From assembly GCA_024137785.1 (NCBI GenBank), contig JAHRHZ010000271.1:24069131-24133130 (forward strand): a stretch of DNA of 64,000 nucleotides, read 5' to 3'. This document shows positions 1,076-55,249 of this stretch, in pieces. A program made the position numbers and the translations under genes. The notes below the pieces were generated by a model. It saw only the letters and a program-made list of their open reading frames with translations. It had not been told where the DNA came from and did no database searches. This DNA is from Ginglymostoma cirratum. Taxonomy: Eukaryota. The first letter of the stretch is position 1. Each line of letters opens with the position of its first letter.

Positions 1076-1126
1076 CTTTAGCTCTTCCTCCATTTCAGAA
1101 ACCTTCCTTTCCAAAGCACGTTTTTC
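1076..1126 (-). CDS. PPP1R12B: Coiled-coil exon (51 nt): EKRALERKVSEMEEELK
   Basis: Acceptor ttggtctttgacag|GAA, donor AAG|gtatga; RALERKxSEMEEE motif. The following leucine-zipper exon is not seen in 1-1075. Confidence 0.95.
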
Positions 1127-2570: not shown

Positions 2571-2621
2571 CCTTTTTTCCATCTCCAGCATTGAAGACTT
2601 ATCAGAAATCCGGTCTTGTTT
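2571..2621 (-). CDS. PPP1R12B: Coiled-coil exon (51 nt): KQDRISDKSSMLEMEKR
   Basis: Acceptor tgcatttcag|AAA, donor AGG|gtatgt; LEMEKR motif. Confidence 0.95.
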
Positions 2622-2739: not shown

Positions 2740-2844
2740 CTGTGTAGCTTTCTCCAGCTGTGTTTTTACTTCAGTGAGCTCCAGCTGTGCCTCCTGCAGT
2801 TTGGCTTTAAGTTTCTCATTTTCAGTCAAGGCCTCTTCATATAA
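2740..2844 (-). CDS. PPP1R12B: Coiled-coil exon (105 nt, phase 0/0): [35 protein letters not shown]
   Basis: Acceptor tttgttttacag|TTA, donor CAG|gttcag; KLQEAQLEL is MYPT2-type. Confidence 0.95.
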
Positions 2845-7126: not shown

Positions 7127-7274
7127 CTTCTTGTAATCCTTTACACTGTCTTCCTGTTCTACTTTGCTAAGGGATGACAATCGATTCTCCCTGCGTGTGT
7201 ATGAACTGGCTCGACTTAATAAACGGTCACTGTAACTGTCAGCTGTTGAGGAATTTGATGATCCTGAATCCAAC
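7127..7274 (-). CDS. PPP1R12B: MYPT2/M20 coding exon (148 nt, phase 2/0): (R)LDSGSSNSSTADSYSDRLLSRASSYTRRENRLSSLSKVEQEDSVKDYKK
   Basis: Acceptor ttttatgtttag|G, donor AAG|gtaggt; RLDSGSSN...DSYSDR...DYKK matches MYPT2 RLESGGSN...DSYGDR...RDYKK. Confidence 0.93.
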
Positions 7275-8139: not shown

Positions 8140-8156
8140 CTGCTGATTCGATCATG
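8140..8156 (-). CDS. PPP1R12B: 17-nt microexon (phase 0/2): HDRIS(R)
   Basis: cttttttttt ctcttatttttcag|CATGATCGAATCAGCAG|gtaaga; supplies exactly the phase needed by the next exon; equivalent to mammalian HERLSR. Confidence 0.9.
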
Positions 8157-9346
8157 CTGAAAAATAAGAGAAAAAAAAAGCCTTTTAGGATGTCGCTGAG
8201 TGCTAATGAACAACATTGTGAAATCCAGGCTAGTGATTTTGGGTTGTAATTAAACTTTGTTTGCAAGAGAACAGTTTCAGTCTGTGCTTACAAGATATAT
8301 TACAAAAATGTGCAATATTATCCTGGAGAAAGAGCACCTTGCAATTACTTGCTACTGATGCAGTTCACTGAGATCTTTCCTGCTGTATCTTTTGGTCAAA
8401 AAACAGCTGCCTTGATGATGTGCCTGATAGAAGGTTTGGAAGGTTGCCAGCAAGTTTGCCCTTCTGGATACGTTCTGGGAATAGACTCTCAGCCAGAAAC
8501 AAATTTTACAGTTTTTTGCCTGGACGAACAGGCATGGTGATGCCAGCCAGGGAATGAATTGGTTAAGTTACCATCACTTATCTTTTAATGCTACAGGTCT
8601 AAACACAGCAACAACTCAAAATAAAATACAATCTCTCAGCTGGGAGATAGAAACAATATGAAGCGAAAGACAACTTTCAGCAAAAACATTTGTTTCCTCT
8701 TTCTTTGTAATAATAGTTTATATTAATTTCAATTGCTTATCAAATTCTGATCATGTTTCACTGTAAAATTACCTTGTTTTGTATTTAAGCAAAAATTCAA
8801 AATATCTTCATTGGCTTATAAAATAACTAAGCCACGCAGACCAAGTGAAAACAAGTTAGTTCTGTTAATTTTTTTGCAAGTGCAGTACAGTTGGCCCCCT
8901 TGGCATTGAGAAGTGTAGAGTTGCCCACAAACTTACAAGTCAACCACAAACTTACAAATTCCACTGAAAATATACGTGCTCTATAGAAAAATATAGTAAT
9001 CACGGTAATGAAGCCTACTGCAGCCAAAGTTCTCATATGAAGACAAAATTTAGCACAGAGAACTCATTGCTGTCGAAACAATTCTCCAGTCCATACTGTT
9101 TTCATAGAAAGAATACTGGCCTCTGTATTACCAGACAGGAGCTACAAACCATTAGTTATTACTGCAAACAGAAAGTCAATGGGCTACAGAATAAGTCACG
9201 CACTGTTACAATGCTTTTACACTATTATGGGATCTTCCACGAAAATCCCATGTAAATGACAATAGTTAAATTATACACATGACTTCTGTAGTTATTGTTG
9301 AAGGTACTTAATTTTAATTTGTTACATTGTAATTTTGAATTTGTAC

Positions 9347-12300
9347 AAAAAGAACAAAGAATAAGAGAAGTACAGCAGAGGAACAGGCCCTTCAGCCCTC
9401 CAAGCCTGTGCCGATCATGCCCAAACTAAATAAAAATTTTCTGTCCTTATTTGGTCCGTATCCCTCTACTCCCTCCCTATTCATGTAACCATTGAGATGC
9501 CTCTTAAATGTCGCCAACACGCCTGCTTCCACCACCTCTTCTAACAGTGCGATCCAGGCTCCTACCACATTCTGCGTGAAAAACTTACCTCGCACATTTC
9601 CCTTAAACATTCCCCCTCTCGCCTTGAACCTGTGTCCCGTTGTAATTGAAACTTCAACCCTGGGAAAAAGCCTCTGACTATCCATCCTATCTATGCCTCT
9701 CATAATTTTGTAGACCTATATCAAATCTCCTCTCAGCTGCTGTCTTTCCAGTGAAAACAACCCTAGTCTTTTTAACCTTTCCTCATAGCCAATGCCCTCG
9801 TAACTGGACAACATCCTGGTAAACATTTGCTGCACTCTCTCCAAAGCTTCCATGTCCTTCTGGTAGTGTGGCGACCAAAACGGCTCACAATGCTCCAAAT
9901 GTGGCCAAAGAAGGGTTTTGTATAGCTGCAAAATGGTTTGCCAACTCTTGTATTCCATGCCCTGGCCGATGAAGGCAAGCGTGTCATATGCCTTCTTGAT
10001 TAGTTTGGCCACCCGTGTTGCCACTTTTAGGGAACTGTGGACCTGCATGCCCAGATCCATCCGTATGTTAGTGTTCCTATGGGTTCTGCCATAATGGTAT
10101 AATTCAGACCTAAGTTTGATCCTCCAAAATGCATCATCTTGCATTTGTCTGGATTAAACTCCATCTGCCATTTCTGTGCCCAAGTCACCAATTTATATCC
10201 TGTTGCATCCTGTCACAATCGTTGGCACTATCAACAACTCCACCAATCTTCATGCCATCTGCAAATTTACGAATCAGACCACCCGCATTTTCATCCAGAT
10301 CATTTATATATATTGCGAACAACAGGAGACCTGAGACTGATCCCTATGGAACACCGCTAGTTACCAGTCTCCATTCTCCATCCTTCCACCGCTATCCTCA
10401 GTCTCCTATGACCAAGCCAGTTTTGTATCCATGTAGCCAGCCCACCCCGAATTCCATGTGGTTTCAGTTTTTGTACCTATCTGCCTTGTGGGACTTTACC
10501 AAATGCCTTACTAAAGTCCAGATAAATCACATCCACAGCTGTTCGCTCATCAGTTGTCTTTGTCGCCTCTTCAAAATTTCAATCATCTTGGTGAGACATG
10601 ATATTCCCCATACAAGGCCATGCTGTCTATCACTAACTAGTCCATTTTCTTCCAGATGTGCATATATCTCATTCCTCGGTAGCTTCTTCGAGAGCCTCCC
10701 CACCACAGACGTTAGGTACACTGGCCTATAATTCCCTGGATTATCCCTGCTTCCTTTCTTAAACAAGGGAACAACAATGGATAATCTCCAGTTCTCTGAA
10801 ACCTTGACTGTGGTCAAGGAGGATGTGAATATATCTGCTAGTGCCCCAGCTCTTTCTTCCCTTGCCTCTTGCAGTAACCTGGGATAGATCTCATCTGGCC
10901 CTGGGAACTATTCTACCTTAATGCAATTTAGGATACCCAAAACTTCCTCCTTATTTACATTCGACAGAGTATTCACACACTCATGCCTAAGCTCAACATC
11001 AGTCATGTCCTTCTCCTTGGTGAATACCGATTCAAAGCAGTCATTAAGGATCTCTCCCTCTTCCAGTGGCTCCACATGCAACCTCCCTCCTTTGTCCTTG
11101 AGTGGGCCTTTTCTTTCCCTTGCTATTCTCTATCTTCTAATATACGCATAAAAAGCCTTGGAATTCACCTTGACCTTGTTTGCGAAAGACACTTCATGGC
11201 TCCTTTTAGCCTTCCCTAATTCTGCATTTAAGCTCCTTCCTAATTTCTCTATACTCTTCAAGGGCTTTGTCACTTCGTAGCTGCCTAGACCTATTGTATG
11301 CTTCTTTTTTCCTTTTGACTAAGCTTACAATTTCCATTGTCATCCATGGTTCCTGAATCCTGCCATTCCTACCTTTCCATTTTGCAGAGACATGCATGTC
11401 CTGCACTTTAATTAACTGGTCTTTAAAAGCCTCCCACATGCCAGACGTAGATTTGCCCACTAATAACTGCTCCCAATTCACATTCCCCAGTTCCTGCCTA
11501 ATTTGGATGTAATTGGCCCTTGCCCAATTAAGCACCCTCACCCTAGGGCCAGTCTTGTCCTTGTCCATGACTACTCAAAATTTTATGGAGTTGTGGTCAC
11601 TAAGTCCAAAATGCTCTCTTGTTGAGACATCGATCACTTGTCTTGGCTCATTCCCTAATACCAAGTCTGGCATGGCCTCCTCTATGGTTGGAATATCAAC
11701 ATACTGTCTCAAAAAGCTCTCCTGGACACATCTAACAAATTGCTCTCCATCCAAGCGCTTGGCTCTAAGACGGTCCCAGTCAATAAGAGGAAAGTTGAAG
11801 TCACCCCGCCCACAGCTACCCTGCTTTTTACACACCAAACAACTACCAACATTGCGATTTCACCCTTTCTATTCCTGAGCTCCACCCATAATGCCACTGC
11901 AAGATCCCTTTGAGGTGTCCTCCCTCAACACAGCTGTGATGTGATCCCTAATCAGCAATGCAACACACCCCCTTTTTGTTTCCCTTTCTGTCCCTTCTAA
12001 AACAGTGAAATCCTGGAATGTTAAACTGCCGGTCCTGTCCCTCCCTTAACCATGTCTATGTAATGGCAATAACATCATAATTCCATACATTAATCCGTGC
12101 TCTTAGTTCATCTGCCTTACCGGTTATATTTCTTGCTTTAAAGTAAATGCACTCCAGACCTCCAGTCCCTGAGCCCTCCGACTTCCTTCTGCCTGCTTTT
12201 ATTCTGCACTAAGCATATCTCAGTCTTTTTTGTCCCCAGTCCCTGCACTTACTGGCCTGTTGTTCTGGTTCCCAAGCCCCTGCCACACTAGTTTAAACCC

Positions 12301-13260
12301 TCCTGAAGACCTCTAGCTAACCTCCCACCCAGGATCCTGGTGCTCGTCCAGCTGACGTGCAACCTGTCCTCCTTGAACAGATCCCAACTTCCCCAGAAGA
12401 CATCCCAATGAGCCATATATCTAAAGCCCACCGTCTGACACCAGCTCTGAAGCCACATGTTCAACAGTACTCTCTTGGTTCCAAGCACACGGCACAGGTA
12501 GTAATCCTGAGATTACTACCTGCTGGTCTTGCTTTTTAGCTCCCTACCTAACTCCCTGAATTATCTTCGCAGGATCGCTCCCTTCTTCCTACCCATGTCA
12601 TTTATGCCAATGTGGACAATGACTTCTATCTGTTTTGGCCTCCCGTTTCAGGATGTCCTGTTCCCACTCAGACATCCAGGACTCTGGCACTAGGAAGGCA
12701 ACACAACATCCTAGGACTTTGTTCACAGCCACAGAAACGCCTGTCTGTGCTCCCGGCTATCGAGTCACCTACAACTATTGCTCGCCAGGACTTTGCCCCA
12801 CCCTGGTTCTGCTACAGAGCAGTTGTGGTGCCACAGGTCTCGCCGCTGCTTGTACTATCTCTTAAGAGGCTATCCCCTCCACAAATCCTCAACAGTATCC
12901 AAAATGGTATACCTGTTTGAGAAGGGAATAGCCACAAGAGATTCCTGCACTACATGCCTCCCTCTCCTGGCAGTCACCCATCTATCTATCTGGACCTGTG
13001 GTGTGACCATGTCCCTAAAGCTAGTGTCTGTTACTCTCTCTGCCCCCTGTATGCACCGCAGCATGTCCAGCTGAACCACGCAGACTATGAGGAGCTGCAG
13101 CTGGTCACACTTCCAGCAGATGTAGTTGTGAGGGACACTAGACTGCTCCCTGATTTCCCACATCTGGCAGGAGGAGCATACCACTGCCCTAACTGCCATC
13201 TCCGCCCTTGTACCGTTTGCTACAGTTTACTCCAGTTTAAAGTTTGCATTTACCACAAGG
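9347..13260 (-). mobile_element. Near full-length, decayed CR1-clade LINE (ORF1 zinc finger/esterase, ORF2 endonuclease and RT)
   Basis: ORF1 MAVRAVVCSSCQMWE...ICWKC at 13199; endonuclease GDFNFPLIDW and SDHNSI; RT PLFKKGSRDNPGNYRPV; C-terminal LERVQ...RLGLFSLE; short-repeat 3' tail at about 9350; many frameshifts and deletions. Confidence 0.92.
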
Positions 13261-13409
13261 CATCTAAAGGTCTAGCAGTATGATAAAATCTGAGCAAAGT
13301 ACTATGGCTGGCTTCAGAATTAGTCAGTGTAAAGATATTATACTGATATATCCATAAACAGGCAGTAAATTCGGGAAATGGTCAGGGTGTTAAATGCTTC
13401 CACCATCAG

Positions 13410-13540
13410 CTGTTCTGATGGAAATTAATTCATAATGGAGGATAACACTGTTTCTTTCCACAGATGCTGCTTGACCTGCTGAGTATTTCTGTGTTCTGTT
13501 TTATTTCAGGGTTCCAACATTTGCAGTATTTTCTTTTGTA
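13410..13540 (+). mobile_element. Decayed Penelope-type terminal repeat fragment
   Basis: ccacagatgctgcttgacctgctgagtatttc...ttccaacatttgcag, shared with the other short elements. Confidence 0.6.
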
Positions 13541-14234
13541 AAAAAAGTTCAGAACACTAATTAAGATTTAAACTTCTACCACTAAAAGATACAACTCATG
13601 CACAGAAGGAACAACAGCAATTCAGAGAAATTCAGAATAATATGGAAGTTGTGCTGAAAGGTATTTCACTTTAACAACAACTTGAATTCAAATTATAAAG
13701 TAAATTACTTGCCCTGATAATTTTCACTATCAGCACATTCTACCCTTCACTCCTGTGATCTAACTCAGAGTATATAAAATACACGTAACTATACAAGGCC
13801 AGTTTTCTATAATTCAGACTTTAGTTAATTTGGTACACTGGTATTTCCCGGGACTGATACTTCTTTTGAATTAGCTTTATACAATTTATTTCAAAACAAA
13901 TTTTGATAAGGCATTTCTGTAACAAGTTTCACATCAGCAATTTACAGTAGAAAACACTAATGCCAGTTTATCGTCTCTTGCAGAAAGTTATACTGATCAA
14001 GATTATTTCCTTAAAATCTGTTTCCTGTTTCTAACAAAAGCTCATTCACATCAGTAAATACAGACACTAGCCAATAAACAGGAATTTAAAGGACTTGTAT
14101 CAGTGAGTCTCTAAGATTACTTTACAAGGAGCATCTTAGTACTGTGAATTTAGTCTTTCATTTGCAGTTAAAGTTAGAAATAACAGTCTTCTGTGCACCA
14201 ATTCTTGGTCTTTCATCAGTGATGCTTAAATAGA

Positions 14235-14478
14235 TATAAAAACAAAGAACTGCAGATGCTGTAAATCAGGAACAAAAACAGAAGTTGCTGGAAAAGGTCT
14301 GGCAGCATCTGTGAAGAAAAATCAGAGTTAATGTTTCAGGTCTGGTGACCCTTGCTGAGAATTCGTTGACCTGAATTTAGCACAGAGAACTCACTGCTGG
14401 ACCCGAAGCATTAACTCCGATTCTTCTTCATAGATGCTGCCAGACCTGCTGGGCTTTTCCAGCTACTTCTGTTTCAGT
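14235..14478. mobile_element. Palindromic Penelope-derived short element
   Basis: aaacagaagttgctggaaaaggtctggcagcatct ... agatgctgccagacctgctgggcttttccagctacttctgttt inverted arms; same family as 5984-6235. Confidence 0.8.
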
Positions 14479-14689
14479 CTAAATAGATTTAGTTCTTTGA
14501 AGGCAAGCCAATAACAAATACCATAAAATCAGGCATATTCTCTTGTGTCTAAAAAAAAATCCAATTTCCTGAACTTTACTTCTAAACAGTACACAAAGAA
14601 GAAAAGTACACCATAAAAGTACGAAAGCATTCACAAATACAATTCAAAATAGTACAAGATTACAACAGAACAGAAAGTTTCGGCTTTGT

Positions 14690-15500
14690 TGATTACATGC
14701 AGGGACAAACTGTAAATTTAAGATCCGCTGGCTCAGTCGTATACTTGCAGTCTCTACATTGGGGAAACAAATTGCAGACTGGGTGAATGCTTTGCAGGAC
14801 ACCTACGTCTTGTCTGCAAAAATGACCCTGAACTTCCATTTTACCTGCCACTTTGACACATGTTCCCTGGCCAATATCTGTCTCTCAGGCTTGGTGCAGT
14901 GACGTTCAGCCAAGCTGAAAGAACAGCAGAGATAAAAGGTACTGCAGATGCTGGAGGATCCGAGATAACAAGCATGGGGCTGGATGAACACAGCAGGTCA
15001 AGCAGCATCATAGGAGCAGGAATGCTTGACCTGCTGTGTTCATCCAGCCCCATGCTTGTTATCTCTGAAAGAACAGCACCTCATTTTCTTCTTGGGGACT
15101 CTGCAGCCTTCTGAACTCAATATGGAGTTCAATAATTTTACAGCCTACACATCATCTCCCTTGTCCTTACAACCCGCACCAGGCCTTGTCATCACATGGG
15201 TTGCTCCCACAAACAACCCATTGTCAACTATTAATGATCCCTATTAGCAGTTATTCATTCTCTCAGGCTGACCTTCACTCATTCTTTTCTTCTGCCTGTT
15301 TTTCTCCCCTTCTGGGCTCCATTTCCACTTATCATTTTCTCCTTCACCCTTCCCCACCCTTTCTTTAACAAATATATTAACCTCTTCCTAGTCACTAGCA
15401 GTTCTGAAGAAGGATCACTGGTCCTGAAACATTGACTCTGCTTTCTCTTCACAGATGCTGTGTTTTTCCAGCAACTTGTTATTTTTTTCCAGTCTGAATA
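14690..15500 (+). mobile_element. 3' fragment of a Penelope-like element (GIY-YIG remnant plus terminal repeat)
   Basis: 14752-14808 translates LYIGETNCRLGECFAGHLR; hammerhead motif CTGAAGA...GAAAC at 15404-15430; interrupted by the 14929-15065 insert. Confidence 0.8.
14929..15065. mobile_element. 137-bp hairpin insert with target-site duplication
   Basis: Perfect 43-bp inverted repeat (14962-15004 / 15023-15065) flanked by tgaaagaacagca at 14916-14928 and 15066-15078. Confidence 0.9.
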
Positions 15501-18660: not shown

Positions 18661-18670
18661 CCAAATATGG
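18661..18670. promoter_or_regulatory. Consensus CArG box (SRF site) in the first intron of the M20 transcript
   Basis: CCAAATATGG = CC(A/T)6GG; function inferred from position only. Confidence 0.3.
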
Positions 18671-20869
18671 ACAGCACTGGTAACAATTTATCCACTCTCT
18701 CCCTTTTTACATCTGGACTGGTCTAATTTAAATTGTCAATTAAGAAGAGACAACTTTAGTAATTATTTTTAAATCTATGGTGTTAGGAAATTACCAATTT
18801 TCACTGGAGACTTTCCATCTCAAAAATGTGCTTTGACAAGTCTGATTCAGCTAGTGACAATTATTTCTGCAATTTGATTTGGCAGAATGGGTAACAACTT
18901 GCAGGGCCAAAGTAGTACAAAAGCATTTGGTTATACTCCTCCACTTTCATTACTGCCCAGTATGTGAATACGTCCAACTGACAGACCATTATCTACTCAG
19001 TATTTTTAATGTTAAAGCTCCTTTATGGTATATATTAGAAACAAAACAGCATCTCTTAGTTATATAAACGAGCCACTTAATGCCTCACTTATGATTGCTG
19101 CATACAACAACTAAATCTGAAGAGAAGCCGAAGTCAAAGCTGGTCATTGACTGAACTGAAAACTTTAATATGTCAGTGTGACTATAATGTTTAAGTTGCC
19201 TTACTTTTGACTTAACAATAGAATCTAATAGTTCTGTGTGCTCATTATTATATTTACCAAACTTATTACAGTAGATAAATGAGCTGCACCAATATTAATA
19301 ATTCTACATTGAATTCATAAAACACCAAAGTTTAAATTAAAAATTGTTGAGTATAGAAGACTTAAATGAAGAAATATAGGATTAATTAAAAACTAAGTTT
19401 TAAAAAAATAGTAATTCCACTGTTTGGGCGGTAATCCATTGTAAGGGGGTAGAATGGAGGGAAAGAAAGGAAGAAATAGTTAATTAAGTGGAAAGAAGTG
19501 GAAGGCTGTGTGCGAGAGAACTAACACAAACATCAGAACTGATTCTACTTACAGCTGAGTTACCTACTCTCATGCTCATGATTACCAACTGGATGAAAAG
19601 GTACTGCGCCTGGCTGCAATGATCATATTGAATAAGAAACCCTCCAACATTCACAATCCATTTTCATACAAATGGGACTGCCACTTAGTTTGTGCACCTC
19701 AAGGCAGTTGGTGGCCACAAAATCTCGAATTTTATTTTGGCTAATGACCGACACCATGTTTTAGTGGTGTCTGAAATGTAATTCTTTGTCAGATGAATGT
19801 TTTAAAATTGGCACGTTTAGTGCATGCGGCATCCCTTGAATATCAAAAATACTTTGAACTTCAATTCATAAACAATGCCATCATCCACATCGGTAAAGAA
19901 TGAAATTATACAATAACTAAAGGCAACATGGAATTATCAATTGGGTGTAATGCATCAAAATCCCTTGATTTGACAAAGTACAGTTTCCATGAAGACGAAA
20001 ACTTTTCTTCAAACATCCTTGATAAAATTAATGTACAGTTGCTGCAATAATTTCCCTTCCATTTAATCAAGATTTCTTTCAGACTGTTAGTTGGTATTCC
20101 AGGCTGTGTTTGTTTGGCAAGTTTTGCCTGGGCCCCAAACTCCACTTTTTCATGCACATTAAACTGCAGAATATCTGCTCCACAACAGCTGTTGCTAATT
20201 ACAAAGGACTTCCACAACAACCTCCCACAAACTGTTCCTGTATATACTTAAAGAGACCACACAATCAGATTTGGGATCAACTGAAGCTAGTTAAGACTAC
20301 TATTAAACAATAATAAAACATCACTATTGGCTTTTTCACCCTATTAGCCACCCTGCTATACATTTAATATGCAGATCAAGAGCCTGGGGCATACATATAT
20401 GCCACTGCTAAAAACAGATGGAAACATGAGTTCAGCTTTTTAATGCAACATTGAACAGAGCAATACAAGTTGCACTTTAAAAAAAATTGGGAAGTATACA
20501 AAAAAATACATTTGACTATCACAATTGCTACTATTTGTATGCTTCTAAATCATTCAGTCCATTTGTCAAAATTAGGAATTGTAACAACAGAGTTAATCAG
20601 AGGGAGAGCAAGTTTCAGTTGTTTTTTTTCTTGAATGTATATTTAACTTCAAAATGAGATCTCAATTCATATTTTGCTTTTTTCTAAAACACTCAAAAAC
20701 ACAAAACTGTCAAATAGAAAACGGAGGATTTTCAAGCTTCTACATGCATTCCATGGGTCAGGATTTTAAAAATCCTACCACCTACAAATGACATTACTTG
20801 CTGCATTGTTGTTAGGCCTCTTTTAATACCATATCACAGCATTAAAATTAAAGTCAGTGATTTTCTTAC

Positions 20870-20971
20870 TCTGAATGTCTTGCTTGTGGGTGAAGGTGAA
20901 CAAGGTGGTGTCTCTTGCTGCGGTTTCTTGTTCCTCATCAGATCCTTATTCCTAGAATACAGCGCTGACAT
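20870..20971 (-). CDS. PPP1R12B: Alternative first coding exon of the small subunit M20/M21: [34 protein letters not shown]
   Basis: ATG at 20971 with A at -3, upstream in-frame TAG at 21016-21014, phase-0 donor AGA|gtaaga in frame with the 8156 microexon; 20/34 identical to the recalled mammalian sm-M20 N-terminus. Confidence 0.9.
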
Positions 20972-22129
20972 AGTTACCAAATCCAAAGAGTTCAAGAACT
21001 GATGGATACTGTACTATATTTACTTTTCCGAGCAAGATTTTTTTCTATGTTCAAACACGTTGCCTTCAGAACTGATTTTCCGTGTCCAAAGCTGCAATTG
21101 TTGAGATTTGCTTTACAAAAGTGCAGATTGACAGGCAATATGAAAATAGAGCTGTTAGACGAATTGTTGGTCTTCAAGCTGAGATCTGTTCTTGTTTAGC
21201 TGGATCAAGAGCTCAGCACATTTAAAAAGAAACAGAGGAAGGCATCAAATAAATCCCAAAGGAGTCTTTCAAAACACCAAGCCACAACAAAGCGGTTTTC
21301 AATTTACCTGAACTGCATCATAAGACGAAAATGAGACAGTCATCAAAACATGATCGTTCATTTTGAAACTTTGTACAGTTCAAGGGGTGGAGCGCTTCTT
21401 GATGATGTATTAATACAGATAAGTTTCATTTTGTTCTCATTGCCTTAGCTGGGCTGCTTCACGCACTGCTTTCTTTCGGCATGTCAATTTTTTTCTGACT
21501 TGAACAGGAATGCTGGAATGAAGCCAAAGGCATCATTCGCTTTCAGCTGGGAATTAGTGATTTTTTTCCTCTGAGGAAGAAACTCTTTAAAAATTCTTTA
21601 TCAGACATCTGGATTTAACAAGGAAGCCAGTACTTTAGAACATAGGAATTCTTGGATTTACACAACATCGAACAACATCACAAATTCACTTTTGGAATGA
21701 CCTGCCCATCATTCTATTTAAACCAATCTCTCAATACAACAAACTTCATTCGGAAACAATGAACTACTTGGTATAACTAAGTGGTCCATGCCAATAGTTT
21801 CATGATACAGACATGATTATTTATTTCAACTGGTTACTTTAGTTGAAACTTTGGCTATAAATACTTTTTTCCAAAATAACTTCTGCTTTTTTCTCATCAC
21901 AAAGAGACTACTTGGTTTAACAACAACCACAGTGAAAAGCAGAGTGGAATTTTACAAAATTTGCATTCTGAACAATTCTTTTAGTAAGGTATTAGATTGG
22001 ATTCGTAGCTAGATTATATTAGTATTAACTATTAGGATTATTCACAGATTGAATATTGTATATTCTTTAAAAGCAGGGACGGCAAATGGCCCCAAAATAA
22101 TAATCTTTAGTTTTGTCCTCAGCACAGTT

Positions 22130-22860
22130 CCACCGTAACTAGTAACGTATACTTTCCTGTTGCATTTGATCTCTCAAAATGCATCATCGTCCACATATCC
22201 CTCAAGTAGCCATCCAAGTTGATAGGGTTCTTAACAAGGCGTATGGTGTACTGGCTTTCATTGGCAGGGAATTGAGTTTAAGAGTCGCAAGGTTATGCTG
22301 CAGCTCTAAAACCCTGGTTAGGGCACGCTTGGAATATTGTGTTTAGTTTTTGTTGCCTCATTATAGGAAGGATGTGGAAGCTTTAGAGAGGGTGCAGAGG
22401 AGATTTACCAGGATGCTGCCTGGACTGGAGGGCAAATCTTATGAGGAAAGGTTGAGGGAGCTAGGGCTTTTCTCATTGGAGCGAAGGAGGATGAGAGGTC
22501 ACTTGATAGAGGTGTACAAGATGATGAGACTCATGGATAGAGTGTATAGCCAGAGACTTTTTCCCAGGGCAAAAATGACAATTACGAGGGGGCAAAGTTT
22601 TGAGATGACTGGAGGAAGGTATTGGGGAGATGCCAGAGGCGGGTTGTTTACACAGAGAGCGGTGGGTGCATGGAATGCGCTACTGGCAGCGGTAGTGGAG
22701 TCAGATACATCAGGGATATTTAAGCGACTCTTGGATAGGCACATGGATGGTAGTAAAATGAAGGGTATGCAGGGTAGTCTGATCTTTGAGTAGGAAACTA
22801 GGTTGGTACAACACTGTGGGCCAAAGAACCTGTACTGTGCTGTACTGTTCTGTGTTCTCA
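22130..22860 (+). mobile_element. 5'-truncated CR1 LINE with a short inverted 5' piece
   Basis: ORF 22350-22793 PHYRKDVEALERVQRRFTRMLPGL...; tail gtactgttctgtgttct; 22130-22190 is upstream CR1 sequence in opposite orientation. Confidence 0.9.
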
Positions 22861-23004
22861 GATGTTTGAGGTGATGCATTTAGGTGTGAAGAGTATTGAA
22901 AGATGATATAATTTTCAGTAAAATAAAGTGATATTTACATTGAAAAAAATTTGTTTTTAAAACGCAGCAAATTAGAATTGAACAAAAGTTAACTGCACAA
23001 CAGA

Positions 23005-24330
23005 ATCACAGAAGTGTTACAGCACAGAGCCGGCTATTTGGCTCATCATCTCACATTAACTTCCCAAATAAACATCATGACTTCCTGGTCCTTATACGAA
23101 TGGAAACAGTTTGTCCTTATTTACGCTACCTAGGCTTCTTCATTTTTGAAACCGGTTATCAGATTTCCTCTTAGGTTTCTTTTCTCCGAGAAGAACAATC
23201 CCAACTTCTTCAATCTATGCTTGTAACTGAAACCTCTCATCTCTGAAACCACCCTTGTAAAGTGTGGGACCCAGGACTGCACACAAGCTGGAGGTCTAAC
23301 AGGTGTTGTATACAAGTTCAGCATAACCTCTTTGCTATTGTGCTCCATGCACCCATTAATAAAGCCCAGGATACCGCACATTAACTGCTCTCAACACCTG
23401 TCTTACCATATTCAAATGAGTTGGACACAAAACACTTCGGTCACTCTGCTCCTGCACTTGGGTATTGCATTGCAATCCTAAAGCAAAAGCATTACCTCCA
23501 ACTTCTGAGGTGATGCATTTTGAGAGATCAAAAGGAACAAGAAAATATACAGTAAATGGTAGCTATCTTAGGAACATCAAAAAACAGAAAGATCTTGGAG
23601 TGCAAAGTCATAGTTCCCTGAAAGTAGCCAAACAAATGAATCAGGTGGTAAACAAGGCAGATGGCATGCTTGCCTTCATCAGCTGGGACACGGAGGATAA
23701 AAGTTGGTATGTCATATTGCAACTGTATCAAACTTTAATTAGGTCACATTTGGAGCATCGTGTGACAACTAGGACTGCTCACAATGGGAAGGATGTGGAA
23801 GCTTTGGACAGACTGCAAAACAGAATTTACCAGGATGATGCCTGGATTGCAGTGAAGTAACCAATCTTTGAAATTGTCCCTGTACAACAAGATCTAGATC
23901 ATGAATATATAGCAGGAAGAGCAAGGATCCACCCCTGGGGAGCTCGACTAAACATCTTCCTCCAGCTCCAAAAAGATCCATTGACCATGACTTGGTTTCC
24001 TGTTACTCCCAATTTTGTTATCACTTTGCGACTGTCCCTTTTATTTCATTAATCTCTATTCTTTTCCCACAAGTCTGTCAATGTGTCACTGCACTGAACA
24101 GCTTCTGGAAGTCCTTGCACACCATAATCAACAACATAATCTTTGTCCACCCTTTGTTATCTCTTCAAAAAAAAGACTCCAGCAAGTTAGTTAAACAATA
24201 TTTTCCCTACAGAAATCTATGCTGTCTCTTCGTAGTCAACCCAACTTCTTCCACATGATTCTATTCTAAAATAATTGTTTCTAGAAGCTTCCCCACCACT
24301 GAAGTTAAACTGACTGGTCTTTCATCTTTC
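23005..24330 (-). mobile_element. Decayed CR1 LINE (minus) interrupted by a plus-strand CR1 fragment at about 23505-23860
   Basis: Minus ORF 23130-23381 (GILGFIN...EVMLNLYTT...LKKLGLF) and plus ORF 23465-23860 (KDLGVQSHSSLKVA...GMLAFIS). Confidence 0.8.
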
Positions 24331-39765: not shown

Positions 39766-40354
39766 GAGAGATAATAGGAACTGCAGATGCTGGCGAATAC
39801 AAGAGAACAAGGTGTAGAGCTGGATGAACACAGCAGGCCAAGCAGCATCATAGGAGCAGGAAGGCTGACGTTTTGGGCCTAGACACTTCATCAGAAATGG
39901 GGGAGGGGAAGGNNNNNNNNNNNNNNNNNNNNNNNNNNNNNNNNNNNNNNNNNNNNNNNNNNNNNNNNNNNNNNNNNNNNNNNNNNNNNNNNNNNNNNNN
40001 NNNNNNNNNNNNNNNNNNNNNNNNNNNNNNNNNNNNNNNNNNNNNNNNNNNNNNNNNNNNNNNNNNNNNNNNNNNNNNNNNNNNNNNNNNNNNNNNNNNN
40101 NNNNNNNNNNNNNNNNNNNNNNNNNNNNNNNNNNNNNNNNNNNNNNNNNNNNNNNNNNNNNNNNNNNNNNNNNNNNNNNNNNNNNNNNNNNNNNNNNNNN
40201 NNNNNNNNNNNNNNNNNNNNNNNNNNNNNNNNNNNNNNNNNNNNNNNNNNNNNNNNNNNNNNNNNNNNNNNNNNNNNNNNNNNNNNNNNNNNNNNNNNNN
40301 NNNNNNNNNNNNTGCTTGGCCTGCTGTGTTCATCCAGCTCTACATCTTGTTATC
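39766..40354. mobile_element. Penelope-derived inverted-repeat element spanning the assembly gap, with 14-bp TSD
   Basis: Arms tgtagagctggatgaacacagcaggccaagca / tgcttggcctgctgtgttcatccagctctaca; cctctttcaagtct at 39750-39763 and 40355-40368. Confidence 0.85.
39913..40312. other. Assembly gap (400 N)
   Basis: Run of N. Confidence 1.
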
Positions 40355-55051: not shown

Positions 55052-55249
55052 TTCTTCCTCTTGGTTTCTACTTGATTTATGCTTGTACTCTTCTATATCT
55101 TGTGTTGTTAAAGGCTTTTCTTTCTCATCTTGCTTCTCCACATCTTGCTTCTCCTTCTCGTCCTTCTCCTGTTGTTCCCGAGCTCGTCTCTCAGCTCGAG
55201 ATCGACTGAATGTCTTTTCAGCTTCCTGCAGGTCTGTTAGTGTTACACC
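55052..55249 (-). CDS. PPP1R12B: MYPT2 coding exon (66 codons, phase 0/0): GVTLTDLQEAEKTFSRSRAERRAREQQEKDEKEKQDVEKQDEKEKPLTTQDIEEYKHKSSRNQEEE
   Basis: Acceptor aaaatag|GGT, donor GAA|gtatgt. GVTLTDLQEAE is the MYPT-family segment after the inhibitory RRSTQ site; TFSRSRAER is MYPT2-type (MYPT1 has TIGRSRSTR). Confidence 0.93.

What the first reader, a model, noticed from the sequence alone, without database searches (positions are those of the whole stretch)
20870..20971. Internal first exon for the M20 small myosin-phosphatase subunit, hidden in a 38-kb intron of a cartilaginous-fish PPP1R12B
Seen: ATG with A at -3, upstream in-frame stop, 34 codons and a phase-0 GTAAGA donor in frame with the 17-nt microexon. 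It is absent from the ORF track and gives 158 aa within the window. Known (recalled): amniote M20/M21 is made from an internal PPP1R12B promoter and starts MSSLYTRSKEFTRNRKSQSDSPPASPSPTAKTLR, same length, 20/34 identical. A typical 28-aa last exon would give about 186 aa, the recalled M21 size. Inference: the nested two-product gene and the PPxSPSPTxKT motif predate the shark/bony-fish split.
Basis: partly seen in the sequence, partly recalled or inferred. Interest (0 to 1): 0.72.

Follow-up and report, generated by a model that had tools for sequence, protein, structure and literature searches.

The report
Shark M20 myosin-phosphatase subunit exon
A short exon deep inside a shark's myosin-phosphatase gene PPP1R12B is spliced into RNA and likely starts the small M20 subunit known from bird and mammal smooth muscle, so this two-proteins-from-one-gene layout is probably as old as jawed vertebrates.

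Summary
Confirmed. On the minus strand, 20971-20870 holds ATG plus 33 codons and a GTAAGA donor inside a 38,200-nt intron. The junction to the 17-nt microexon (8156) is seen in 3 of 4 runs, from three studies. Coverage runs unbroken to 21319, with no upstream junction seen. With the shared downstream exons it gives 186 aa, the length of chicken M20/M21. The same locus holds a full-length ankyrin-bearing MYPT2 (exon 1 at C271:24.283 Mb). A tree and synteny place it with PPP1R12B. The exon is 20/34 identical to primate M20. Automated RefSeq models already carry it in 8 shark and ray species and across bony vertebrates, unnamed as M20. It was not found in the three paralogous loci searched. Added here: none of 32 long teleost-type 12B models examined matches the N-terminal 560 residues (PP1-binding ankyrin half). 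The shark/amniote nested gene therefore looks ancestral and the teleost gene reduced. Start site, tissue, protein and MYPT1 binding were not shown in shark. A known system in a new lineage; modest interest.

The parts
20870..20971 (-). Coding part of the M20 exon, 34 codons (P0001)
20972..21479 (-). Transcribed 5' leader: one contig runs unbroken to 21319, a second covers 21318-21479; 9 upstream ATGs, all closed by stops; start site not mapped
20864..20869 (-). GTAAGA splice donor, used
20951..20953 (-). Internal acceptor (AG 20953-20952) used by a Hemiscyllium model; gives an immediate stop in the MYPT2 frame; use not seen in this species
21155..21201 (-). Candidate acceptor at 21199 in the leader and the short stop-ended frame that matches the tail of a Heterodontus truncated MYPT2 model
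8140..8156 (-). 17-nt microexon, first exon shared by MYPT2 and M20
7127..7274 (-). Shared exon, 148 nt
2740..2844 (-). Shared exon, coiled coil (PF15898 start)
2571..2621 (-). Shared exon, 51 nt
1076..1126 (-). Shared penultimate exon, 51 nt; last exon lies outside the window at G000:C271:24.0604 Mb
46357..46398 (-). MYPT2-only exon before the 38.2-kb intron, 42 nt, phase 0
48315..48436 (-). MYPT2-only exon
49791..49974 (-). MYPT2-only exon
55052..55249 (-). MYPT2-only exon following the inhibitory-Thr exon

Best explanation
The 34-codon exon is spliced to the shared microexon in RNA and is likely the first exon of a transcript from an internal promoter of shark PPP1R12B, which would make a 186-aa M20 subunit predicted to bind the tail of MYPT1 in smooth muscle. 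Shown: the exon, the splice, the open 186-aa frame, a full-length ankyrin-bearing gene on the same strand, and conservation of the exon across jawed vertebrates. Inferred: a promoter at or above about 21320-21480; translation from ATG 20971; smooth-muscle expression. The product keeps the coiled coil and leucine zipper but lacks the PP1c-binding N-terminus, the ankyrins and both inhibitory threonine regions, so it cannot target PP1 itself. By analogy with human M20, it would pair with the MYPT1 coiled coil, block MYPT1-MYPT1 dimers, slow autodephosphorylation and so hold the phosphatase partly inhibited (review PMC13755552, section 12). The basic, Ser/Pro-rich 34-mer is the only M20-specific part; it is a candidate for the Ca2+-sensitising activity that the review assigns to M20's N-terminal half.
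For: Junction 20870 to 8156 and on into 7274 in contigs of X2 and X4 and in 3 raw poly(A) reads of X12: 3 of 4 runs, 3 studies. Leader contiguous to 21319 across the candidate acceptors, no loose end upstream. [quoted passage not shown] Same exon and join in RefSeq models of 8 chondrichthyan species. 120 of the 120 listed near-length relatives carry the exon; Met 1 is invariant in the 103 equal-length ones by selection, R7, K9, R13, P22, P23 in 101 of 103. Full-length gene at C271:24.283-24.060 Mb. Shark '12B-like' proteins group with marsupial 12B, SH-aLRT 95. Internal start in rat arteries (PMC4552530 passages).
Against: RNA support is thin: 3 raw reads and 2 contigs, tissues unknown. X3 showed no junction, X13 had no coverage, X1 showed unspliced intron pieces. 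No start site mapped; no CArG box within 20500-23500. Nine upstream ATGs in the longest leader. Two shark models and one salmonid-type protein use this exon region as an internal or terminal exon of the long transcript. The shark has KKP at 15-17 where most relatives have RKS. No shark protein or binding data. The tree is the quick version, midpoint-rooted, without a labelled 12C.
Confidence: 0.85

Rival explanations
1. The stretch is mainly a cassette or poison exon of the long MYPT2 transcript, entered through acceptors at 21199, 20998 or 20951, and has no promoter of its own.
For: A Heterodontus model ends in a peptide matching window 21193-21155 (score 49, next best 26). A Hemiscyllium model joins exon 46398-46357 to the acceptor at 20951. 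P0317 carries the exon in frame inside a long teleost-type protein. An in-frame acceptor exists at 20998.
Against: Contigs run through 20951 and 20998 (X2) and through 20998 and 21199 (X2, X4) with no loose ends. 0 of 120 long proteins contain the exon. A poison exon would not keep an ATG and 34 conserved codons from sharks to mammals.
Confidence: 0.07
2. M20 is made, but the ATG exon is the second exon: the true start is a non-coding exon further up the intron or the leader is spliced.
For: The two X2 contigs meet at 21318-21319 without the usual overlap, and a donor-like CAG/GTAAAT lies at 21307. No recognisable smooth-muscle promoter element nearby.
Against: No loose ends upstream in 4 runs; coverage fades between 21170 and 21479 as at a transcript end. 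Low depth limits this.
Confidence: 0.06
3. The locus is not PPP1R12B but a fourth PPP1R12 ohnologue with a parallel exon.
For: The genome has four PPP1R12 loci, and RefSeq names these proteins 12B-like or 12A-like.
Against: Tree; last-exon peptide identical to bony-vertebrate 12B and unlike the other three loci; a myogenin-type gene on the same contig and an SYT1/2-class gene tail-to-tail 85 kb away (gene order recalled from human 1q32); 71-73% identity to gar, eel and newt M20.
Confidence: 0.02

Closest known systems
[quoted passage not shown]
   Same: 186 aa, unique 34-residue start, shared MYPT2 coiled coil and leucine zipper (PF15898), nested in a full-length PPP1R12B.
   Different: 17-20 of 34 identical in the unique exon; RKS at 15-17 replaced by KKP; one Q instead of QQ in the coil; promoter, tissue and binding untested in shark.
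RefSeq 'PPP1R12B-like' short isoforms of sharks and rays (XP_072419346.1, XP_048408971.1, XP_072886477.1, XP_069797754.1 and others)
   Same: Same exon, 28-34 of 34 identical in the four compared, same join.
   Different: Automated models, not named M20; no paper found on them.
Teleost ppp1r12b
   Same: Keeps the M20 exon and 180-185-aa product.
   Different: Long models examined are 185-494 aa, start at or after shark residue 561 and lack ankyrins.
Heart-specific HS-M21
   Same: Short product of the same gene sharing the C-terminus.
   Different: A separate variant; by recall it starts further upstream and does not use this exon.

Membership tests
sm-M20/M21 | Encoded within PPP1R12B (full-length MYPT2 at the same locus) | tested here: met
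   synteny
sm-M20/M21 | Unique 34-residue N-terminal exon homologous to bird and mammal M20 | tested here: met
   17/34 and 20/34; bony-only profile E=1.2e-14
sm-M20/M21 | Spliced in frame to the shared C-terminal exons, about 186 aa, PF15898 present | tested here: met
sm-M20/M21 | No RVxF or ankyrin region in the product | tested here: met
   orthologue P0010 has only PF15898 above cut-off; ankyrin exons lie over 160 kb upstream
sm-M20/M21 | Own internal promoter | tested here: inconclusive
   unspliced leader, no upstream junction, but low depth and no capped ends
sm-M20/M21 | Smooth-muscle expression | not testable with these tools
   run tissues not given
sm-M20/M21 | Binds MYPT1 C-terminus in a trimer with PP1c | not tested
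   no complex prediction run; known for chicken and human
Poison or cassette exon of MYPT2 | Junction from exon 46357 into the exon | tested here: not met
   none seen in 4 runs at low depth; present in models of two other sharks

The most novel reading that the evidence does not exclude
The last common ancestor of jawed vertebrates already had one PPP1R12B gene making both full-length MYPT2 and M20; the M20 exon arose only in the 12B copy after the vertebrate genome duplications; and teleosts secondarily lost the PP1-binding ankyrin half while keeping M20. M20 would then be the part of the gene under the most lasting selection, and the M20-centred fish gene is a reduction, not the primordial state. 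A 2014 bioinformatic study, recalled and not readable here, suggested the reverse.
Probability: 0.7. Interest if true: 0.45.

Novelty: new member of a known kind. Interest (0 to 1): 0.33.

Why it matters
M20's role is still called largely unknown (PMC13755552, section 12), and its Ca2+-sensitising activity maps to the N-terminal half. A 34-residue segment kept at near-constant length from sharks to mammals points to the residues worth mutating: M1-S2, R7-x-K9, R13, PPxSPSP, K31, R34. The shark gene also sets the direction of change: nested MYPT2 plus M20 first, teleost truncation later. That matters for anyone using zebrafish as a model of MYPT2. The system itself is known and the isoform is already in automated annotations.

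Tried and rejected
Seven look-ups found no held text (for the 2014 subunit-diversity study; 25, 56, 80 for three other papers), so the 2014 'primordial M21' remark is recall only. Seven literature searches listed no paper on M20 in sharks or on its age; subscription journals are mostly not held and no supplements were read. M20-like exon in paralogues: none in C8 14.65-14.73 Mb, C20 2.29-2.36 Mb or C62 54.30-54.35 Mb, best E=1.7 and 2.8; older divergence could hide one. Cyclostomes: no lamprey or hagfish name, but only 10 of 150 representatives were named and no cyclostome genome was searched; the four divergent M20-like representatives that carried names were teleosts, one had no name. Chimaera: full-length 12B present, M20 not among the listed hits; untested. 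KDM5 synteny search gave no match on C271. No CArG near the exon; 8 in the window, nearest at 18661, not tested against chance. The sigma-70 scan does not apply to a vertebrate. The 15-kb lay was swamped by repeats. The run index listed no holder on record as RNA, which is no evidence either way. PDB holds only the MYPT1 coiled coil 5HUZ as a relative. Tails of P0199 and P0200 could not be placed firmly.

Full report
Observation. The feature is on the minus strand. ATG begins at 20971 with A at -3, an in-frame stop lies 15 codons upstream, 34 codons follow, and GTAAGA starts at 20869. It lies in the 38,200-nt intron between a 42-nt exon (46398-46357) and a 17-nt microexon (8156-8140). Joining it to exons 8156-8140, 7274-7127, 2844-2740, 2621-2571 and 1126-1076 gives 158 aa without a stop. 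The last exon at G000:C271:24.0604 Mb adds 28 aa, total 186. Three of 73 GT(A/G)AG sites in the intron have a similar ATG-to-donor frame, so the layout alone is uncommon but not unique. Homology settles it: a profile from 26 bony-vertebrate sequences hits this frame at E=1.2e-14 among 11,270, next best 1.4.

RNA. Six runs were laid. In one search, contigs of X2 and X4 and three raw poly(A) reads of X12 stop at 20870, and their 30 loose letters equal the microexon plus the first 13 bases of the next exon as computed. That is 3 of 4 runs, from three studies. X3 gave only unspliced pieces. In one search, X13 had no coverage and X1 gave intron pieces, with its loose ends mostly hidden by repeats. 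X2 runs unbroken from 20870 to 21319 and a second contig covers 21318-21479; X4 covers 20961-21233. No upstream junction appeared. A 5,241-nt X2 contig starts 15-17 letters before the 148-nt exon, as expected if two upstream exons converge on the microexon (inference). Depth is low, tissues are not given, and contigs cannot show a start site.

Host gene. A 925-aa Stegostoma protein maps exon by exon to C271 from 24.283 to 24.060 Mb on one strand, with the KVKF-type motif region and ankyrin repeats. The genome has four PPP1R12 loci. In a quick ML tree of 15 rows (careful search unfinished, midpoint root, no labelled 12C, window gene represented by its Stegostoma orthologue), chondrichthyan '12B-like' proteins join marsupial 12B (SH-aLRT 95), the C20/C21 locus joins 12A (99), and C62 and C8 fall outside. 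A myogenin-type gene is on C271, 12.7 Mb away, and an SYT1/2-class C2B exon lies tail-to-tail 85 kb downstream. Gene names and the human 1q32 order are recalled, and the PDB search could not separate SYT1 from SYT2. The organism is probably a carpet shark: the 34-mer is identical in Rhincodon and Chiloscyllium punctatum.

Distribution. RefSeq models with this start and join exist for Stegostoma, two Chiloscyllium, Hemiscyllium, Rhincodon, Hemitrygon, Hypanus and Narcine. Of 616 near-length hits, the best 120 were listed and all 120 carry the exon; they span bichir, sturgeon, gar, teleosts, coelacanth, amphibians, reptiles, birds and mammals. The list is ranked by likeness to a query holding the exon, so it shows breadth, not frequency. 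No like exon was found in the matching introns of the three paralogues. Chimaeras and cyclostomes remain untested.

Teleost reduction. A profile search of 1.84 billion representatives and naming of 10 of the 150 listed gave long teleost 12B models from salmonids, Menidia, loaches, Merluccius and Pimephales. Of 32 examined (31 named, one unnamed), 31 align to the shark protein only from residue 561 onward and one gave no alignment. Ten of ten scanned have no ankyrin hit, while three control full-length proteins do. Many share a similar short new start across three orders, which argues against random annotation splits. These clusters were picked by the C-terminus and no teleost genome was searched, so a full-length teleost copy is not excluded. 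With sharks, rays, chimaera and amniotes all holding the full gene, loss in teleosts is the simpler reading.

Other uses of the exon. A Heterodontus model ends in a peptide matching leader 21193-21155; a Hemiscyllium model enters at 20951; both stop the MYPT2 frame before the coiled coil (one search tested the second join one base off, one search has it right). P0317 includes the exon in frame in a long protein. These look like side products of a long transcript crossing a strong donor; they were not seen in this species.

Mechanism and literature. Read: PMC13755552 abstract, passages and section 12: M20 comes from an alternative MYPT2 promoter, binds the MYPT1 C-terminus, prevents super-dimers, lowers autodephosphorylation; its role is largely unknown. 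Passages only: PMC4552530 (internal start site in rat arteries), PMC10851227, PMC4819859, PMC5087845, PMC3770619 (nothing on 12B evolution in the passages shown). The 2014 study by Dippold and Fisher and the 2026 PNAS paper were not held; the first is recalled, the second known through the review. Shark function is inferred from these.

Verdict. Real, spliced and conserved; a new member of a known kind, already in automated annotations of relatives. The added value is the age of the nested design and the likely teleost loss. Interest 0.33.

Noticed in passing
G000 C62:54.31-54.47 Mb and C8:14.66-14.73 Mb: Two further full-length PPP1R12 loci besides 12A and 12B, so four in all where mammals have three. 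C62 also carries a MYOD-type gene 17 Mb away; C8 is a long branch. One may be a fourth ohnologue.
   Followed up: partly
P0348, P0322, P0309 clusters: Long teleost ppp1r12b models start at the exon carrying the inhibitory Thr site and lack ankyrins; several salmonid ones end in a Chromo-domain piece, probably from a retroelement.
   Followed up: partly
G000 C283:40512162-40512654: Intronless, stop-riddled copy of the PPP1R12 C-terminal region, 51% identical; probably a retrocopy.
   Followed up: no
G000 C271:24066170-24066226: Weak (E=0.06), stop-containing match to the duplicated alternative last exon seen in shark 12A and gar 12B; possibly a decayed copy.
   Followed up: partly
No evidence of a separate start.
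   Followed up: no
window 39913-40312: 400-base N gap inside the 38-kb intron, flanked by overlapping long frames suggestive of simple repeats.
   Followed up: no
window 8988-15448: High-copy repeats with very deep coverage in all laid runs, strongest at 14-15.4 kb; LINE-like fragments also near 28.5-30 kb.
   Followed up: no
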